Notes under the pieces: model-generated
Told to the model about the DNA's origin: nothing
What the model saw: the letters and a program-made list of their open reading frames with translations, nothing else
Database searches by the model: none
Assembly (NCBI GenBank): GCA_044227445.1
Contig: JBGAWT010000001.1
Location: 1-47,850 of the forward strand
DNA length: 47,850 nt
Source: Bdellovibrionia bacterium
Lineage (GTDB): Bacteria > Bdellovibrionota > UBA1018
Direction of reading: 5' to 3'
Translations under genes and position numbers: made by a program
Shown here: piece after piece, positions 1 through 15,695 of the stretch
Layout of the letters: each line of letters starts with the position of its first letter
Position numbering within the stretch: the stretch's first letter is position 1

Positions 1-336
1 GCCGACGATCATTTTGTTGAGATCTTCGCCCGTCTTAAGAAAGCTGATCTCCGCATGGATCTTTCGGCGATTCTTGTCAGTCGCCGAAACTTGGCCTATG
101 GCCCCCTCGTAGGGATCATTGTCGCTTTTTTCCGGACTCCATTTTGAGGACAGCCCCTTGATTCCATAATCATGTTGGAAGTGGCACCAGAGCGCCTTTT
201 CCTTGGGGTGCGCAAAGATGGGTAGGTAAACGCCCGCCGCGACACCGACGTGGTAGGTCGATTTCTCACCGTCTGCCCAAGACACAGCGGTGAGTAAGGA
301 CAGGATGATCCCAAAGAAGAAACTGGTTTTTGTCAT
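1..336 (-). CDS. hypothetical secreted protein, N-terminal part only (gene runs off the left edge)
   Basis: This is not in the ORF track because no stop falls inside the window. A reverse-strand ATG (334..336) opens a frame that stays open for all 112 codons down to position 1: MTKTSFFFGIILSLLTAVSWADGEKSTYHVGVAAGVYLPIFAHPKEK... The N-terminus looks like a Sec signal peptide. The track ORF 96..314 is in another frame and has Arg/Pro/Ser-rich junk composition. There is no clear SD. Confidence 0.5.
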   Translation of the reverse strand, partial: MTKTSFFFGIILSLLTAVSWADGEKSTYHVGVAAGVYLPIFAHPKEKALWCHFQHDYGIKGLSSKWSPEKSDNDPYEGAIGQVSATDKNRRKIHAEISFLKTGEDLNKMIVG

Positions 337-375
337 TGATTCATTGTGACGAGCGGAGGGGGATCAGTCAACAAA

Positions 376-459
376 GGTGGGGCCGGCGGGATTTACGCTC
401 CGTCGAACGGAATTTGGCTTCCGGTGCTCGGACTACACGTCCTCGCCTTGCAGCCCGGG
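376..459. repeat. att-like copy of the tRNA-Pro 3' end (376..394) fused to copy 1 of a 65-nt direct repeat (395..459)
   Basis: ggtggggccggcgggattt (376..394) matches the tRNA-Pro 3' end ggtcgggccggcgggattt (2977..2995) at 18/19 positions in the same orientation. The next 65 nt (395..459) are about 90% identical to 2781..2846, including perfect 36-nt (atttggcttccggtgctcggactacacgtcctcgcc) and 11-nt blocks. Confidence 0.85.
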
Positions 460-598
460 TTGGCTAGAGATGGCTAAAGCCGTGCCTATAAGCTTTGCCT
501 TCCAAAATCCAAGACTCTGAAATATTCTAATTGAAATACACAGTCCAAATATCTTCAAGATACTTACTCAACAATCCAAATTGGCATGGAGGCCAACA

Positions 599-2650
599 AT
601 GGAGCTAGTTTTCAAGAACTGTAACAGCATAGCTGAAGCGAAGATCCGAATTGAAGAAAACAAGCTAAACATCAAGTTTGGAATAAATGGTGTTGGCAAA
701 AGCACTATAGCTAAAGCACTTTTGCTGAATGCAAATGAGCCGTCGGACTTAACATCCTTGACGCCATTCAGATATCGCCAGACACCTCAGCAAACACAAA
801 ATGCACCAACCGTAGAAGGTGCAAATGGAATTAAAAGTGTCCTGATTTTTGATGAATCGTATATTGAGCAGTTCGTCTTCCGAGAGGATGAGCTAGTAAA
901 AAATAGTTTTGAAATCTTCATAAGAACTCAAAAGTTCAATGAGCAGATGGCATCCATTGAAGCCACCATCATAGAGATTAAAAAGACCTTTGAAGCAGAT
1001 GAGAGCCTCAGTGAGGTCATCACAGACCTCAGCGAACTCGAAAGATGCATTGGAAAAACCACTAAGAAAGGTGAATTATCCGCAGCCAGTCCCTTCGGAA
1101 GAGCCCTAGGCAAGGGAAACCAGACAGAGAAAATTCCTGAAAAACTTAAAAAATACTCTAGCTACCTTACCAATGGCAATCTTGTTGGCTGGTTAGATTG
1201 GCAGATTGATGGCCACGAATTTTTAGATACTTCTGATGCTTGTCCATACTGCGTCGCTTCAACGAGCGGGAAAAAAGAACTCATTCGGTCTGTTGGGGAG
1301 GAGTTCGATAAGAATGTAATAAAGCACTTAAATTCGATTAAGAAAGTGCTCGAAAGACTGAACGAATACTTCAGCGAAGCCTCTAACAAGGAGTTAGTCG
1401 CACTTCTCAAAAACACAGACGGATTTTCCGCGAAGGAAAACCTATTTCTGGAAACACTGAGAAGCCAGGTTGCCTTTCTTTGGCGCCATTTGTCTAATCT
1501 CAAAGAAATAAATTCTTTGTCCCTCATGGATGACGATGAAAAAGTCATCGAAAAGATAAGTGACCTATCCATCAAGATGGACGTCATACAAAAACTAGAC
1601 TCAGAGAAAACTCGCACTATTGTTGAAAAAGTTAACACCTCTCTTCGTTTAGTAATGGAGAAAGCTGAAAAACTTCAGCAGGAGCTCGCGGCTCAAAAGA
1701 AAACCGTCGAAGAAACGATAAATAAACACAAAGACGGGATAAATGGGTTTTTGCGATGCGCAGGGTATCAATACACAGTCGACATTGAGAGTGACCCAGA
1801 AACCAAGTCATTTAAAATGAAGCTAAGTCACAAAGACTTAGATGAATATCTGCCACATGGCGACGCGCATCTGAGCTATGGTGAAAAAAATGCGTTCGCA
1901 ATTGTATTGTTCATGTATGAATGTCTGAGTAAAAAACCAGATTTAATCATTCTCGATGATCCGATTTCGTCTTTCGATAAAAATAAAAAATATGCCCTTC
2001 TAGAAACCCTCTTCGGCGAGGCAACCGAGCTAAGGGGTAAAACTGTGATGATGCTCACCCATGATCTAGAGCCAATCATAGACATGATCTATACAAAGGG
2101 GAAAACTTATGGACATGAAACTACTGCGAGTTTTCTAAAAGCAGAAAACGGGACAATTTTTGAAATTCCGATAAAGAGAGAAGACATTGTTAGCTTCACA
2201 AAGGTTTGTGACGATGTCCTTGGGTCCCAGGAAGACAACATCATCAAATTAATACACTTGCGACGGTGGGCCGAAATTCAGAATGACAAAGGTCCAGTTT
2301 ACAATCTCATTTCTAGTCTCCTAAAAAAACGTCCTCTTCCAACCTTAAGAGATGAAAAAACAGAAATGTCGGCCGAGGATGTGAAATCTGCCACTATTGA
2401 AATCCAAAAAAGGATTTCCAACTTCAGCTATGGTGAGATTCTAAAGCGCATCAAGAACGACTCAGAAATGAAGCAATTATTTGAAACGTGCACAAATCAG
2501 GCGAAGCTAAGCAGGTATTTCGAATTATCAAGACTCTTCCACCTGAAAGTAGACTGCCGGTCGAAAAAACTAAAAGCAGGGATTTTTCTGAAGTTTATCG
2601 ATGAAACCTTTCACATCGAAAACGACTACATAATGCAACTTAGCCCCTGA
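599..2650 (+). CDS. AAA_13-type (RloC/PrrC-like) ABC/SMC-fold ATPase with a CxxC between coiled-coil segments; candidate anticodon-nuclease-type defence protein
   Basis: The track ORF is 581..2650 (TTG); the in-frame ATG at 599 (MELVFKN) is the more likely start. Motifs (track numbering): Walker A GINGVGKST (nt 680..706); CPYC at 1241..1252, flanked by long charged and helical stretches; ABC-signature-like LSYGEKNAF; Walker B DLIILDDP; MLTHD. The C-terminal ~130 aa contains R-x2-E (RYFE) and a His 33 aa later (ETFHIEN), loosely like the PrrC/RloC Arg-Glu-His triad as I recall it. The gene is clearly AT-rich (sampled lines 33-40% GC against ~53% in lpxC). Confidence 0.8.
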   Translation: MELVFKNCNSIAEAKIRIEENKLNIKFGINGVGKSTIAKALLLNANEPSDLTSLTPFRYRQTPQQTQNAPTVEGANGIKSVLIFDESYIEQFVFREDELVKNSFEIFIRTQKFNEQMASIEATIIEIKKTFEADESLSEVITDLSELERCIGKTTKKGELSAASPFGRALGKGNQTEKIPEKLKKYSSYLTNGNLVGWLDWQIDGHEFLDTSDACPYCVASTSGKKELIRSVGEEFDKNVIKHLNSIKKVLERLNEYFSEASNKELVALLKNTDGFSAKENLFLETLRSQVAFLWRHLSNLKEINSLSLMDDDEKVIEKISDLSIKMDVIQKLDSEKTRTIVEKVNTSLRLVMEKAEKLQQELAAQKKTVEETINKHKDGINGFLRCAGYQYTVDIESDPETKSFKMKLSHKDLDEYLPHGDAHLSYGEKNAFAIVLFMYECLSKKPDLIILDDPISSFDKNKKYALLETLFGEATELRGKTVMMLTHDLEPIIDMIYTKGKTYGHETTASFLKAENGTIFEIPIKREDIVSFTKVCDDVLGSQEDNIIKLIHLRRWAEIQNDKGPVYNLISSLLKKRPLPTLRDEKTEMSAEDVKSATIEIQKRISNFSYGEILKRIKNDSEMKQLFETCTNQAKLSRYFELSRLFHLKVDCRSKKLKAGIFLKFIDETFHIENDYIMQLSP

Positions 2651-2767
2651 AGTATGAAACAGTGCCTCACTTTCTTGTCGAAGAGTGTTAAATATCTTGT
2701 TTACAGATCCAGTCATCCCATAGCCTGACGTTTCTACTCGAGAGACTATCCTCAGGAACTATGCGAA

Positions 2768-2846
2768 GGGCGGCGGATTTACGCTCCGCCGAACGGGGAT
2801 TTGGCTTCCGGTGCTCGGACTACACGTCCTCGCCCTGCAGCCCGGG
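2768..2846. repeat. decayed tRNA-3'-end motif (2768..2780) plus copy 2 of the 65-nt direct repeat (2781..2846)
   Basis: gggcggcggattt is gggccggcgggattt with two 1-nt gaps. It is followed by acgctccgccgaacggggatttggcttccggtgctcggactacacgtcctcgccctgcagcccggg, which is about 90% identical to 395..459. Track ORFs 2759..2956, 2761..2997 and 2820..3020 cross this repeat and the tRNA, so I treat them as spurious. Confidence 0.85.
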
Positions 2847-2910
2847 CTCAACGCCCACCCGCAAGCGGGTTCCCGGGCGTCTCCGCCTTTCAAATCCCGC
2901 CGTAGGGTAC

Positions 2911-2928
2911 AAAACGCGTGCGCGTTTT
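2911..2928. terminator. perfect palindromic hairpin (aaaacgcg-tg-cgcgtttt), possible bidirectional terminator downstream of tRNA-Pro
   Basis: An 8-bp stem with a 2-nt loop, and the A/T runs form part of the stem. It lies 48 nt beyond the 3' end of the minus-strand tRNA. Its function is not proven. Confidence 0.35.
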
Positions 2929-2975
2929 GACGATCGTATACCGACCAAAACTTCACTCACTTTGTTCGTTTGTTT

Positions 2976-3053
2976 TGGTCGGGCCGGCGGGATTTGAACC
3001 CACGACCCCTTGCACCCCATGCAAGTGCGCTAGCCAGACTGCGCTACGGCCCG
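2976..3053 (-). tRNA. tRNA-Pro (anticodon GGG), CCA encoded
   Basis: The reverse complement folds as a cloverleaf: CGGGCCG TA GCGC AGTCTGGCTA GCGC A CTTGC ATGGGGT GCAAG GGGTC GTGGG TTCAAAT CCCGC CGGCCCG A CCA. The 7-bp acceptor is fully paired, the T-loop is TTCAAAT, and the anticodon loop is A-T-GGG-G-T with G37, typical of tRNA-Pro. Confidence 0.95.
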
Positions 3054-4064: not shown

Positions 4065-4344
4065 GGTCTAATCCCCTTATCGCTCCCACACCTGCACGAT
4101 TACTTAACTCAAGAGCAAGGAGCGTGCCGAACTCAGGAAATCTGCGTCACGAACGGGAATTAGACAAAACTGGCGTCGATATTCGACCATTTTGTTCCAA
4201 AATAAAAGCTCTATTTTTCATAGAGTTAGAAAGGCAAACACGCGATCGACTTGGCGCGTCAAGAAGTGCAAAAAAACCTGCTGTGCCGAAAGGTTACACC
4301 TCTGTGGCACTCTTAAAAGTGTGTGTGTGAGCACACAGGTTTAG

Positions 4345-5408
4345 CTAAGTTTCGGTGCGCTTCTGCAACACCGCATCCATCGCTGACGCAGCGGGCGGAG
4401 ACCAGACAAAACCCAGATGCTCGTACGCCAGACGAGTGGCCATGCGACCTCGGGGCGTGCGCTGAAGAAGCCCCTCTTGAATCAAAAAGGGTTCGTACAC
4501 GTCTTCGAGAGTGTCGCGCTCTTCTCCTAGGGCTGAACAAAGATTTTCGATCCCCACGGGCCCCCCATCGTACTTCTCGATGATGGAAGTAAGCAGCTTG
4601 CGATCCATGAGATCCAAACCCCGAGGATCCACCTCAAAAAGCGTCAGAGCTTTTTGCGCGATCTCGCGAGTGAGCTTCGCTTCTTGGCCTGCAAACACTT
4701 GGGCATAATCGCGCACGCGCTTGAGCAACCGATTGGCGATGCGAGGCGTCCCGCGCGAACGGCGCGCAATCTCGTTGGCTCCCGACTCATCAGTCGGAAC
4801 TCCCAAAAACTGCGAGGACCTGCGCACGATCTCTTCGATCTCGGTCACAGGATAAAAATCCAAGCGCAGCTGAACGCCAAAGCGATCGCGCAACGGACTA
4901 GAGAGCAAACCGGTGCGCGTGGTCGCGCCCGCAAAGTAAAACGCGGCAAGTCGATGCGAATGGTGCGAGCCGCAGGACCCTGACCCAAAATCAGATCGAG
5001 CTTGAAGTCCTCCATCGCGCTGTAAAGCACTTCTTCGATGGTCTTGGGCAGTCGGTGAATCTCATCGATAAAAAGGACATCGCCGGGCTGAAGATTGCTC
5101 AGCACTGCGGCTAGATCGCCTTTCTTCTCGACGTTAGGGCCGGTGACCAAATGAATCTGCGTCTTCATTTCCTCTGCGATGATGTGGGCAAGCGTCGTCT
5201 TACCCAATCCTGGTGGGCCCGCCAAAAGCACGTGATCCAGGGCTTCGCCGCGTGCGCGAGCAGCGGCCATGAACAGGCGCAGATTCTCTTTAACTTTATA
5301 TTGGCCGATGTAATCGGACAGATGCGAAGGTCTGAGGCTTTTCTCAGCCTGCACCTCTCCCACGCCCTTGGACTCGCGATCAACGGTACGAACGGATTCG
5401 GTTTCCAT
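4345..5408 (-). pseudogene. ruvB: Holliday junction branch-migration ATPase RuvB, split by one frame shift (fragments 4845..5408 and 4345..4908)
   Basis: The N-fragment has [20 protein letters not shown] and ...[10 protein letters not shown]. The C-fragment resumes with (GATTRTG)[11 protein letters not shown]... On the reverse strand the sequence reads ttt act ttg cg ggc gcg acc, so one nt is missing at the C-run 4928..4931. Confidence 0.9.
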
Positions 5409-11334: not shown

Positions 11335-11850
11335 ATGGCCCTGATCAAGCGCGTTTCGGAAGCCCTCACCAAAGCGATCGAACCCGTGTCGCGTGCTACA
11401 GATGCGCCGATCTCGCATTCTTCTCGCTCATCGACGGACCCGGATGGGGGCGCCCGGCATAAGCGCGACTTCAAGGTCATCAAAAAGGACGACTTGCCCC
11501 AGGCACAGGCCTCAGGCCAAGCCACACCTGCTTCGACGGGCTTTCAGCGCTTAGGATCGGTATCCCAAGAAACGAAGATCGCCAACGCCGCTACCCAAGC
11601 CGCGATGGACGACACTGAACCGCGAGAATTCCATGAGATCGTCGCAGTCAACCAATTGCGCGACCAAAAACCCCTGACGCCAGAACAAATGAGCGTTGCC
11701 CATCGAATCGTCCAGCTCATCTCGGCCTTTCAAAAGCAGCAGGGAAACATCCTGCGCTGGGTCGGCACCCGAACCTACCGCGTGCTCTCAGGCGAAAGCC
11801 GCAAGGGCAAGTTCCGAAGAGGCGCGATGCTGGATGAAGAGATCGATTAG
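11335..11850 (+). CDS. hypothetical protein (172 aa from ATG 11335)
   Basis: The track ORF is 11209..11850. The in-frame ATG at 11335 has AAGGA 8 nt upstream (MALIKRVSEALTK...). The sequence is low-complexity and Ser/Thr/Ala/Gln-rich with no recognisable domain. Its stop overlaps the next gene by 17 nt. Confidence 0.5.
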   Translation: MALIKRVSEALTKAIEPVSRATDAPISHSSRSSTDPDGGARHKRDFKVIKKDDLPQAQASGQATPASTGFQRLGSVSQETKIANAATQAAMDDTEPREFHEIVAVNQLRDQKPLTPEQMSVAHRIVQLISAFQKQQGNILRWVGTRTYRVLSGESRKGKFRRGAMLDEEID

Positions 11851-14786: not shown

Positions 14787-15695
14787 TCACCGTAGCTTAG
14801 TTTCGGTCCCCACGCGAGCGATCGCGCGCGCTACGCGAGGCCTTCCTGTTAGGTCATCTAAGATAGCCACTTCCCAACCCAAGTCGGAGCCTAAATCGAT
14901 GATCTCGCCGGCTCGTTCATGGGGAATCTCCATCCAAAGCTGCCCGCGGGGCATCAGAGCGATTGCGGCCTGCTCAAAGAGCTTGCGATAAAAATACAGC
15001 GCATCGTGAGCGGGAGCGAAAAGCGCCATGTGAGGCTCGTGGCGGGCGACTTCGGGCGTCACCTCATCGGATCCATGAATCAGATACGGGGGATTAGCGA
15101 CGATGAAGCCTGGCCGTTCCGGATTTTGTGTCGCCCAATCAAACAACGGCTCCAACACATCCGTGTCTTGCTGAGGTCTGACGATCACGAGCTGATCCGA
15201 AGCCAGCTGCCCTAGGATCGTACGCGCGTTTTCCTGGGCGATACGGGTGGCCGCCTCGCTCCACTCGCTAGCAATCATCTTGAGCTCTCTAAAAGTCGCC
15301 AGCAACTCGATGCTGATCACCCCGGAGCCCAGTCCAAATTCCCAACCCAGAGGAGGTGCGCCGTTTCGCTTCAATTCCTCCGTGATCGCACTGACTAAAA
15401 CCTCAGTCTCGGGCCTGGGAATGAGCACCTGCGGCCCCACGCGGTAGCGGTGGTCCAAAAAAACCTGCTCGCCCGTTAGATGCTGCACGGGTACGCCCGT
15501 TTGGCGCTTGGAGAGCCACTGCTCGAGGATTTGACGAGCGACATCGGGCCAGGGCTCACCGCCCTCGAGTACGAGCTCGGAGCGCGAGAGTCTGCGGCCT
15601 GTTGCGGCCTCGAAGGCGGCAAGCACTAAGATATCCGCCTCGGATTGGTTCCCAAGTCGGGTGCCGGCGCTGCCCAACACCTCAGCTAAGGTCAC
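14787..15695 (-). CDS. prmC: peptide chain release factor N5-glutamine methyltransferase
   Basis: 302 aa with the NPPY motif (IVANPPYL). It overlaps prfA by 4 nt. Confidence 0.9.
   Translation of the reverse strand: MTLAEVLGSAGTRLGNQSEADILVLAAFEAATGRRLSRSELVLEGGEPWPDVARQILEQWLSKRQTGVPVQHLTGEQVFLDHRYRVGPQVLIPRPETEVLVSAITEELKRNGAPPLGWEFGLGSGVISIELLATFRELKMIASEWSEAATRIAQENARTILGQLASDQLVIVRPQQDTDVLEPLFDWATQNPERPGFIVANPPYLIHGSDEVTPEVARHEPHMALFAPAHDALYFYRKLFEQAAIALMPRGQLWMEIPHERAGEIIDLGSDLGWEVAILDDLTGRPRVARAIARVGTETKLR

What the first reader, a model, noticed from the sequence alone, without database searches (positions are those of the whole stretch)
376..3053. Decayed, possibly tandem integrative islet at tRNA-Pro(GGG), bounded by tRNA 3'-end copies and a duplicated 65-nt element end
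The layout on the plus strand is: [tRNA-3'-end copy 376..394, 18/19 match][repeat R 395..459][AT-rich cargo with one ATPase gene 460..2767][degenerate tRNA-3'-end copy 2768..2780][repeat R' 2781..2846, ~90% identical][129 nt with hairpins][genuine tRNA-Pro 3' end at 2976]. The pattern att-R-cargo-att-R-cargo-att(tRNA) is what two related elements would leave after integrating one after the other into the same tRNA 3' end, with R as the conserved element arm. No integrase remains. The cargo is clearly AT-rich (sampled lines 33-40% GC) compared with its neighbours (~53-60%).
Basis: partly seen in the sequence, partly recalled or inferred. Interest (0 to 1): 0.7.

Follow-up and report, generated by a model that had tools for sequence, protein, structure and literature searches.

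The report
Integrase-less defence islet at tRNA-Pro
A 2.4-kb stretch of foreign, AT-rich DNA with one candidate anti-phage ATPase gene sits beside a proline tRNA gene, bracketed by copies of the tRNA's end and of a small folded DNA module that also occurs alone in a distant relative; it is an ordinary kind of genomic islet with an unusual, structured attachment site.

Summary
tRNA-Pro(GGG) (2976-3053, minus) is followed by a 129-nt spacer and a repeat made of a degenerate tRNA-3'-end copy plus R' (2768-2846). Next come 2.3 kb of 40.5% GC DNA with one gene (599-2650, plus) and a second repeat (376-459): an 18/19 tRNA-end copy plus R, 94% identical to R'. The gene matches the PADLOC candidate defence family PDC-S06 over its full length and is a Rad50/SMC-like ABC ATPase. 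The 47.8-kb contig has no integrase. R was found at no other locus searched. New result: R' and most of the "129 nt" form one structured module of about 140 nt, made of an inverted tRNA-core copy, two hairpins and a direct core copy. This module stands alone beside tRNA-Pro(GGG) in a distant relative (71% identity, 9 compensatory pair changes). A third relative has units of the same architecture in tandem with a real integrase island at this tRNA. Best reading: tandem integrase-less units (like cis-mobilizable elements) at a tRNA-Pro integration hotspot, one empty and one carrying a defence gene. The kind is ordinary; the structured att module is unusual and unexplained. I found no empty site in a close relative and no integrase element carrying R.

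The parts
2976..3053 (-). tRNA-Pro(GGG), intact. Its last ~19 nt (plus-strand 2977-2995, GGTCGGGCCGGCGGGATTT) are the att core (T-loop 3' part, T-stem 3' strand, acceptor 3' strand, ACC).
   Evidence: ARAGORN; Rfam RF00005 59.5 bits; repeat family D5
2906..2975 (-). Spacer after the tRNA. CCGACCAAAAC (2941-2951) is an inverted repeat of GTTTTGGTCGG (2972-2982), which is the tRNA 3' end plus 4 nt. A bidirectional terminator-like hairpin CAAAACGCGTGCGCGTTTTG lies at 2910-2929.
   Evidence: read from the sequence; folds; a hairpin is at the same aligned position in L061
2765..2905 (-). Module 1, a structured unit. Its parts are: inverted core copy (plus-strand TTTCAAATCCCGCCG 2888-2902); closing stem 2892-2898 with 2796-2802; hairpin domain D1 (2850-2881, with invariant ACCCGCTTGCGGGT); hairpin domain D2 (2803-2842); a near-perfect palindrome GGCGGA-GCGTAAA-TCCGCC (2771-2791); and the degenerate direct core 2768-2780.
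   Evidence: homolog in L061: 71% over 104 nt ungapped, blastn E=8.8e-9, nhmmer 4.3e-9; 34 pairs, 97% paired, 9 compensatory vs 0-2 in slid controls; covariance model (CM) 170.6 bits
2651..2767 (.). Non-coding 117 nt between the ATPase stop codon and the degenerate core. It resembles neither the spacer nor any module part.
599..2650 (+). Cargo gene: 683-aa Rad50/SMC-like ABC ATPase with a ~300-aa helical insertion carrying an invariant CPxC, plus a ~190-aa C-terminal domain of unknown family. It matches the PADLOC candidate defence family PDC-S06.
   Evidence: PADLOC PDLC04889 E=5e-242 over 1-683; Pfam ABC_tran; AlphaFold pLDDT 75.8; Foldseek SMC/Rad50 heads E~1e-7, also retron Ec83 ATPase and AriA; invariant C215/P216/C218
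460..598 (.). AT-rich region upstream of the ATPase gene (RBS GGAGG at 588-592). The stretch 460-517 may be a diverged inverted core plus D1 of a second module (GCCTTCCAAAATCCAAG 485-501 vs CGCCTTTCAAATCCCG in module 1). This is tentative.
   Evidence: CM hit 374-517(-) 67.8 bits, most of it from R; motif match has chance probability ~0.01; fold not significant, z=-0.38
376..459 (-). Distal repeat: R (395-459, a copy of D2 plus the closing-stem 3' strand) and an 18/19 copy of the tRNA 3' end (376-394). This is the outer att boundary.
1..375 (-). Host flank: the 5' part of a gene for a secreted protein (start at 336, runs off the contig end) with a promoter-like site at 343-371. GC is 52%.
   Evidence: no homologs found

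Best explanation
This is a tandem pair of integrase-less integrative units at the 3' end of tRNA-Pro(GGG), a site used as attB by tyrosine integrases in this Bdellovibrionota/Oligoflexia-like lineage.

Unit 1 (2768-2975, ~210 bp) has no cargo. It consists of a spacer with a terminator-like hairpin and a conserved structured att module. Unit 2 (376-2767, ~2.39 kb) carries one foreign gene, a PDC-S06 Rad50/SMC-like ATPase that probably acts as a stand-alone anti-phage (abortive-infection type) sensor-effector. Unit 2 ends in a copy of the same module arm (R) plus the tRNA-end core.

Each unit was inserted by site-specific recombination at the core; the second used an att site of the first (accretion). 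The recombinase is supplied in trans or has been lost. The units are therefore like cis-mobilizable elements (CIMEs): att sites retained, no integration genes.

Shown: the anatomy, the foreign composition, the gene family, the homology and structure of the module, and integrase use of this tRNA in a relative. Inferred: the order of events, the trans-acting recombinase, and the defence function.
For: - Anatomy and repeats.
- Cargo 40.5% GC vs 55.2% for the host.
- PDC-S06 full-length match and Rad50/SMC fold.
- The gene family is mobile: 815 plasmid records, 607 of them conjugative. Its closest full-length homolog (56%) lies in an island with HTH_17 and Phage_integrase genes.
- Nucleotide homology with the closest relative, L100, stops exactly at the tRNA 3' end.
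- L101 has tRNA-Pro(GGG), a 444-aa tyrosine integrase and a 21-nt direct repeat of the same tRNA segment, then at least one complete ~229-nt mini-unit and possibly a further partial one, bounded by a third core copy.
- L061 has unit 1 alone between a tRNA-end copy and the tRNA.
- The module is present at 2 of 8 related tRNA-Pro loci by homology (the window and L061), and at 3 of 8 counting L101, which shares only the architecture. Such a patchy distribution is expected for a mobile element.
- R is absent elsewhere: window, GTDB representative genomes, JGI metagenomes, IMG/VR.
- No integrase in the whole contig.
Against: - No autonomous relative with R next to an integrase was found, so 'decayed from an integrase-bearing element' is unproven.
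- The tRNA-proximal end of unit 2 (2651-2767) shows no relation to unit 1's spacer or module. The two units therefore share only one arm.
- The central core is degenerate (two 1-nt deletions).
- R and R' are 94% identical while the remaining module parts of unit 2 are at best about 50% similar. This fits recombination within the 84-bp homology as well as it fits two independent arrivals.
- No close relative with an empty or unit-1-only site was found.
- Other contigs of the source genome could not be searched, so a few more R copies cannot be excluded.
- PDC-S06 is only a predicted defence family.
Confidence: 0.6

Rival explanations
1. A single event, not two elements. The ancestor had only tRNA, spacer, module and flank, as in L061. 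A circular or linear DNA carrying the ATPase gene plus an R-core homolog then recombined within the ~84-bp homology, by RecA or by an integrase. The result is one insertion flanked by an 84-bp direct repeat.
For: L061 shows the module alone. R and R' are 94% identical while flanking parts are unrelated. The repeat ends sharply at CCCGGG inside the module, between D1 and D2. The proximal end of unit 2 has no att arm.
Against: The incoming DNA must still have carried R plus core, that is, the att arm of the same element family. This is therefore more a variant of the main explanation than an alternative. L101 shows true tandem units at this tRNA. The distal copy may have its own diverged inverted core, with a compensatory G-C to A-U change in the closing stem.
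Confidence: 0.2
2. The att module works as folded single-stranded DNA. The inverted core and the direct core anneal to rebuild a duplex copy of the tRNA core, and D1 and D2 hold the fold. A recombinase encoded elsewhere inserts integrase-less cassettes next to the tRNA one after another. This would resemble integron attC sites or the CTX-phage attP(+) hairpin.
For: An inverted core lies 95-125 nt from a direct core in three loci: the window (I1, 73, 74), L061 (z=-3.85; DNA z=-4.67) and L101 (13-bp closing stem, z=-3.46; I1/I2). The hairpins are kept by 9 compensatory changes. In L101 the inverted core follows that genome's different tRNA sequence. Each terminator-like hairpin is immediately followed by the inverted core, leaving no room for a promoter in the window or L101, which argues against an RNA gene. 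Tyrosine recombinases are known to act on folded ssDNA (PMC4246890).
Against: There are only three loci. No recombinase is linked. There is no evidence of a single-stranded stage: no rolling-circle replication or conjugation genes. L101's own integrase island has ordinary arms with direct arm-type repeats. Inverted cores might instead arise by template switching at the terminator palindrome.
Confidence: 0.12
3. The module is a structured non-coding RNA gene transcribed in the tRNA direction. The tRNA-end copies are part of the RNA, and the ATPase insertion merely duplicated part of it.
For: There is strong covariation. Two G-U pairs occur only on the tRNA-sense strand. The module is conserved between organisms whose LpxC is only 62% identical.
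Against: No Rfam family matches. A terminator-like hairpin separates the module from the tRNA, with no room for a promoter. The inverted copy covers the whole att core including CCA, so the 3' end would be base-paired, not tRNA-like. The distribution is patchy: 2-3 of 8 related loci. Both strands fold equally well as DNA.
Confidence: 0.08
4. R is a dispersed REP/MITE-like repeat, and its two copies around the ATPase gene are coincidental.
For: R contains hairpins.
Against: There are only two copies in 47.8 kb. There were no exact 20-22-mer hits in 596 Gb of representative genomes, the JGI metagenomes or IMG/VR, and no blastn hit in plasmids or phages. Both copies are fused in register to a tRNA-end copy. 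The only homolog is also at tRNA-Pro.
Confidence: 0.03
5. Assembly artefact: the AT-rich segment was joined into the contig at the repeats.
For: The source is a metagenome-assembled contig and the islet lies 375 nt from its end. The GC jump is abrupt.
Against: Two joins at homologous positions would be needed. The two repeat copies differ at 4 positions, and host DNA continues on both sides. The longest exact shared stretch is 35 nt.
Confidence: 0.03

Closest known systems
Cis-mobilizable elements (CIMEs) and tandem accretion of integrative elements at the 3' end of tRNA genes (ICESt1/ICESt3-type, reviewed in PMC5704250)
   Same: The att sites are retained on both sides and there are no integration or transfer genes. 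Units lie in tandem, separated by a copy of the target-gene end. A new element is proposed to enter at an att site of a resident remnant.
   Different: No related autonomous element is known. The units are tiny (0.2 and 2.4 kb). The shared arm is a structured module with an inverted core. The host is an uncultured Bdellovibrionota-like bacterium, not a Firmicute.
tRNA-targeted genomic islands with a tyrosine integrase (P4-like type; the sublocation rule of Williams 2002 is cited from memory)
   Same: The direct repeat starts in the T-loop and runs to the tRNA 3' end. The cargo is foreign in composition and carries an accessory or defence gene. L101 is a complete example at the same tRNA.
   Different: No integrase or excisionase gene is present here, and the repeat is 84 bp including non-tRNA sequence.
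Integron gene cassettes with attC sites
   Same: Single-gene, integrase-less cassettes lie in tandem. Each ends in an imperfect-palindrome site whose structure is conserved more than its sequence and whose outer core repeats the core of the primary site.
   Different: There is no GTTRRRY core, no IntI/attI/Pc platform, the gene points away from its site, and the primary site is a tRNA gene.
CTX-phage / IMEX folded attP(+) (PMC4246890, PMC3442271)
   Same: Two att-like sites lie in inverted orientation about 90-125 nt apart and can anneal into a duplex copy of the chromosomal target. The elements lack their own recombinase and form tandem arrays.
   Different: The target is tRNA-Pro, not dif. 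There are no filamentous-phage or rolling-circle replication genes, and the recombinase is unknown.
PDC-S06 (PADLOC candidate) and RloC/PrrC-type ABC-ATPase defence proteins (PMC2610378)
   Same: It has an ABC ATPase head split by a coiled-coil with a CxxC apex and a C-terminal extra domain. An invariant R-x3-E motif (R555, E559) is present. It is a single-gene accessory locus.
   Different: RloC's His 36-52 residues after the Glu is absent; the nearest invariant His is 113 residues away. No nuclease family was detected in the C-terminal domain. Defence activity is untested.

Membership tests
tRNA-targeted integrative genomic island | Lies directly 3' of a tRNA gene, with a direct repeat of the tRNA 3' segment at the far boundary | tested here: met
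   376-394 vs 2977-2995, 18/19
tRNA-targeted integrative genomic island | Encodes its own tyrosine (or serine) integrase | tested here: not met
   The only ORF is the ATPase. No integrase was found in 45 ORFs of the contig or by tblastn with the L101 integrase.
tRNA-targeted integrative genomic island | Composition differs from the host | tested here: met
   40.5% vs 55.2% GC
tRNA-targeted integrative genomic island | Empty site in a close relative | tested here: inconclusive
   In L100 (LpxC 85%), homology ends exactly at the tRNA 3' end, but 140 nt of different AT-rich DNA follow and the contig ends. More distant relatives L001, L060, L062 and L105 have no module.
CIME / tandem accretion | attL and attR retained; integration and transfer genes absent | tested here: met
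CIME / tandem accretion | Derived from, or related to, a known autonomous ICE/IME sharing the att arms | tested here: not met
   No R- or module-bearing element was found in GTDB representatives, JGI metagenomes, IMG/VR, plasmids or phages. The arms of the L101 integrase island are unrelated.
CIME / tandem accretion | Excision or mobilization by a cognate integrase in trans | not testable with these tools
   Needs an experiment or read-level data.
PADLOC PDC-S06 | Full-length match to the family HMM | tested here: met
   E=5e-242, residues 1-683 on profile 1-669/693
PADLOC PDC-S06 | Demonstrated anti-phage activity | not testable with these tools
   The five papers that mention PDC-S06 only list it as predicted.
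RloC anticodon nuclease | ABC head with a coiled-coil/CX2C zinc-hook insert | tested here: met
   Invariant C215-P-x-C218 in the helical insertion. Rad50/SMC heads are the top structural matches. Definition from PMC2610378.
RloC anticodon nuclease | C-terminal Arg-X3-Glu-X36-52-His catalytic triad | tested here: not met
   R555-x3-E559 is invariant, but there is no conserved His 36-52 residues downstream; the next invariant His is H672.
Integron cassette / attC | R''/L''-L'/R' site with a GTTRRRY core, next to intI/attI | tested here: not met
   The core is AAATCCCGCCGGCCC, and there is no intI in the contig.
IMEX / CTX-type folded attP | Two target-like sites in inverted orientation able to anneal | tested here: met
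   (I1)
IMEX / CTX-type folded attP | Target is dif; recombination by XerCD; ssDNA genome | tested here: not met
   The target is tRNA-Pro, and no phage or rolling-circle replication genes are present.
REP/MITE dispersed repeat | Many copies at unrelated loci | tested here: not met
   The rest of the source genome was not available.
Any Rfam RNA family | Covariance-model match | tested here: not met
   Only the tRNA matches; nothing else has E<0.01.

The most novel reading that the evidence does not exclude
The ~140-nt module defines an undescribed class of integrase-less cassettes. Their attachment site would be a folded hairpin that rebuilds, from an inverted and a direct copy, a duplex mimic of the tRNA-Pro T-arm/acceptor end. 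A recombinase encoded elsewhere would insert such cassettes, empty or carrying a defence gene, one after another beside the tRNA. This would be an integron- or CTX-like logic operating at a tRNA gene.
Probability: 0.12. Interest if true: 0.8.

Novelty: new variant of a known kind. Interest (0 to 1): 0.45.

Why it matters
As a genomic islet this is routine: tRNA genes are classical landing sites, defence genes are typical cargo, and tandem remnants are well known. Two points go beyond routine.

First, it is a clean example of a single candidate defence gene (PDC-S06) moving as a 2.4-kb unit with no recombinase of its own. This bears on how defence genes spread in little-studied predatory or uncultured Bdellovibrionota.

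Second, the attachment arm is not a loose set of protein-binding sites. It is a compact structure kept by compensatory changes and built around an inverted copy of the target core. Units of the same architecture, with unrelated interior sequence, occur in a third genome whose tRNA sequence differs. If this structure is the recombination substrate, folded-DNA site-specific recombination would extend from integrons and Xer-exploiting phages to tRNA-targeted islands.

Tried and rejected
- R as a dispersed repeat: exact 20-22-mers found nothing in GTDB representative genomes, JGI metagenomes or IMG/VR. A conserved module motif found nothing in IMG/VR. blastn of the module found nothing in plasmids or phages. 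Rejected.
- Source genome: the ATPase and LpxC proteins were not retrievable by exact look-up. The other contigs of the MAG could not be searched.
- Empty site: LpxC-based searches of genomes and metagenomes gave at best 61-63% identity. The protein database gave one 85% relative on a 2.1-kb contig that ends 140 nt past the tRNA. The flank protein has no homologs.
- Closest ATPase homologs: L059 (65%) is truncated by an IS and has no R. P0002 (56%) lies in an integrase island, but no DNA was available.
- R or the spacer as a stable RNA on their own: z-scores of only -1.2 to -1.6.
- Known RNA families: none.
- Covariance model R1 on 112 loci (1.3 Mb): only the window and L061 match.
- Unit 2 as a complete second module: only tentative (chance probability ~0.01; fold z=-0.38).
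- Retron reading (structured ncRNA plus ATPase): rejected, because there is no reverse transcriptase and the module occurs alone.
- RloC membership: the catalytic-triad spacing is not met.
- Integrase in trans on the same contig: none.


Full report
**1. Observation**

The window is a whole 47,850-bp contig of an uncultured bacterium (P0001, NCBI). Its housekeeping genes (ruvAB, lpxC, aroA, prfA, rho, dnaX, recR, ftsAZ, murB) are closest to Bdellovibrionota/Oligoflexia MAGs.

ARAGORN and Rfam find one tRNA, tRNA-Pro(GGG), at 2976..3053 on the minus strand, 52 nt after lpxC.

- 376-394 matches the tRNA 3' end (2977-2995) at 18/19.
- 389-459 matches 2775-2846 at 94% over 72 nt with one 1-nt gap.
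- 2768-2780 is a copy of the core with two 1-nt deletions.
- The shared 35-mer and the 14-mer core occur nowhere else in the contig.

The stretch 460-2767 is 40.5% GC, against 55.2% for the rest. It holds one gene, 599..2650 (+), preceded by GGAGG. Nothing in the interval, or anywhere else in the contig, resembles an integrase.

**2. The cargo**

The 683-aa product matches PADLOC family PDC-S06 end to end (E=5e-242). Pfam sees only an ABC ATPase head.

An AlphaFold model (pLDDT 75.8) is closest to SMC and Rad50 heads with their coiled coil. It also resembles the ATPases of retron Ec83 and of PARIS (AriA). A CPxC motif is invariant in the middle of the helical insertion, as in the Rad50/RloC zinc hook (PMC2610378).

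The RloC nuclease triad spacing is not met, and the C-terminal 190 aa match no family.

The family is large (at least 2,900 proteins with E<=1e-20 among the 8,000 candidates scored) and mobile. It occurs in 815 plasmid records, 607 of them conjugative, and in no phage record. Its closest full-length homolog lies in an island with an HTH_17 gene and a tyrosine integrase.

PDC-S06 is so far only a predicted defence gene.

**3. Is R a dispersed repeat?**

No, in everything I could search. Exact 20-22-mers of R are absent from 596 Gb of representative genomes, from the JGI metagenome contigs and from IMG/VR. The module is absent from plasmids and phages. The remaining contigs of the source genome could not be reached.

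**4. Relatives of the locus**

ruvB-lpxC-tRNA-Pro(GGG) is conserved in order in several relatives (L001, L060, L062, L100).

- L100, the closest relative (LpxC 85%), is collinear with the window. Its nucleotide homology stops exactly at the tRNA 3' end. It then carries 140 nt of unrelated AT-rich DNA before its contig ends. The site is therefore a variable hotspot, but a true empty site was not seen.
- L001, L060, L062 and L105-107 have the tRNA followed by ordinary DNA.
- L101 has a textbook island. The tRNA-Pro(GGG) is followed by a 444-aa tyrosine integrase gene, two small genes and a 21-nt direct repeat that starts in the T-loop and runs to the 3' end. This is the same identity block as in the window.
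- L101 also has a third core copy 229 nt further on. It thus carries at least one cargo-less mini-unit in tandem with the island.

**5. The unexpected part: a structured module**

L061 (LpxC 62%) has, next to its tRNA-Pro(GGG), a tRNA-end copy about 160 nt from the tRNA. The DNA between is homologous to window 2796-2905: 71% identity over 104 ungapped nt, blastn E=8.8e-9 and nhmmer E=4.3e-9 against 1.3 Mb.

On the tRNA-sense strand both sequences fold into the same shape.

- A 7-9-bp closing stem pairs an inverted copy of the tRNA core (GGGAUUUG) with the direct copy (CAAAUCCC).
- The stem encloses hairpin D1: a 7-bp stem around the invariant ACCCGCUUGCGGGU.
- It also encloses hairpin D2: an 8-bp hairpin that is the heart of R.

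Of 34 pairs, 97% of cells are paired and 9 pairs changed on both sides while staying paired. The same partners slid by 1-3 columns give 26-46% paired and 0-2 such pairs. One of 500 shuffles reaches the observed values.

The L061 copy folds far better than shuffles: z=-3.85 as RNA and about -4.6 as DNA on either strand. The window copy reaches z=-1.76.

A covariance model built from the two finds nothing in 112 other loci. In the window it finds module 1 (170.6 bits) and the distal repeat (67.8 bits). That second hit extends into 460-517, where GCCTTCCAAAATCCAAG resembles the inverted core. The closing stem there shows a G-C to A-U double change. The motif match has a chance probability of about 0.01, and that region does not fold significantly. 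I treat a complete second module as tentative.

**6. The same architecture with a different sequence**

In L101 each distal core is followed by a terminator palindrome and then an inverted core copy (I1 and I2). The 181-nt unit folds at z=-3.46, with a 13-bp closing stem between the inverted and direct cores.

The tRNA of L101 differs in this segment (CCAGTCGCCCC instead of CCCGCCGGCCC), and its inverted copies follow its own sequence. Its interior hairpins are unrelated to D1 and D2.

In the window the tRNA end itself is inverted-repeated at 2941-2951, and a bidirectional terminator-like hairpin (2910-2929) precedes the inverted core. The recurrent unit is therefore: core, terminator hairpin, inverted core, hairpins, core.

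**7. Interpretation**

The best-supported reading is a tandem pair of integrase-less units at a tRNA-Pro integration hotspot. One is an empty mini-unit (2768-2975). The other is a 2.39-kb unit with a candidate defence ATPase (376-2767). They share one att arm.

This matches the definition of cis-mobilizable elements and of accretion at tRNA 3' ends (PMC5704250).

What cannot be decided is whether two elements arrived in turn or whether one DNA recombined within the 84-bp homology of a resident module. It is also open whether the units ever had an integrase.

Why the arm is a conserved hairpin structure with an inverted core is unexplained.

- An RNA gene is less likely. There is no Rfam match. 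A terminator-like hairpin lies just upstream with no room for a promoter. The CCA end would be base-paired. The distribution is patchy.
- A folded single-stranded att site, as in integron attC or CTX attP(+) (PMC4246890), fits the anatomy but has no direct support.

**8. Verdict**

- The kind of element is known; the structured att module is a new variant resting on three loci.
- Interest is moderate.

Noticed in passing
window 4345-5408 (-): ruvB is split into two overlapping ORFs (4345-4908 and 4845-5408) carrying the C- and N-terminal RuvB domains. Relatives have one 350-358-aa RuvB. This is a frameshift, either a pseudogene or an assembly error.
   Followed up: partly
L101 11700-16000: A complete integrase island (444-aa tyrosine integrase) lies at tRNA-Pro(GGG) and is followed by tandem ~229-nt units. 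There are three direct core copies (11765, 15558, 15787). The two distal copies (15558, 15787) are each followed by a terminator palindrome plus an inverted core; the tRNA's own copy at 11765 is not. The motif GCGAACGNAGTGAGCACG recurs at 15669 and 15882. Both island arms carry TGCAACCACTTGCAACCAGTCTC (11837, 15425).
   Followed up: partly
L100 1985-2124: In the closest relative (LpxC 85%), the DNA right after the tRNA-Pro 3' end is AT-rich and unrelated to the window, and the contig ends 140 nt later. Another, different insertion probably occupies the same site.
   Followed up: partly
L059 1-2375: The closest ATPase homolog (65% identity) is truncated at 545 aa. It is followed by what looks like the start of an IS3-type transposase gene and preceded by a recombinase-like ORF. 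It has no R and no tRNA.
   Followed up: no
window 2771-2791 and 384-405: Next to the direct core, the window copies carry about 21 nt that L061 lacks. In copy B this creates a perfect 6-bp palindrome with a 7-nt spacer (GGCGGA GCGTAAA TCCGCC). It resembles a T-arm or a core-type recombinase site with a 7-bp overlap.
   Followed up: no
window 599-2650 (protein residues 555-559, 665-674): The PDC-S06 family has invariant residues in its unassigned C-terminal domain: R555, R556, E559, and K665, E669, H672, E674 (motif FHIEN). These are possible catalytic residues of an unknown effector domain. The model has low confidence there (pLDDT below 50 for 640-683).
   Followed up: partly
window 4065-4344: The 280-nt intergenic region between lpxC and ruvB has a local GC dip to 46%. 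Relatives have about 90-250 nt there. It was not examined.
   Followed up: no
window 343-371 (-): A promoter-like site (TTGACT-17-CACAAT) for the flanking secreted-protein gene lies just 5 nt outside the distal tRNA-end copy. The islet boundary therefore abuts that gene's promoter. The protein has no detectable homologs.
   Followed up: partly
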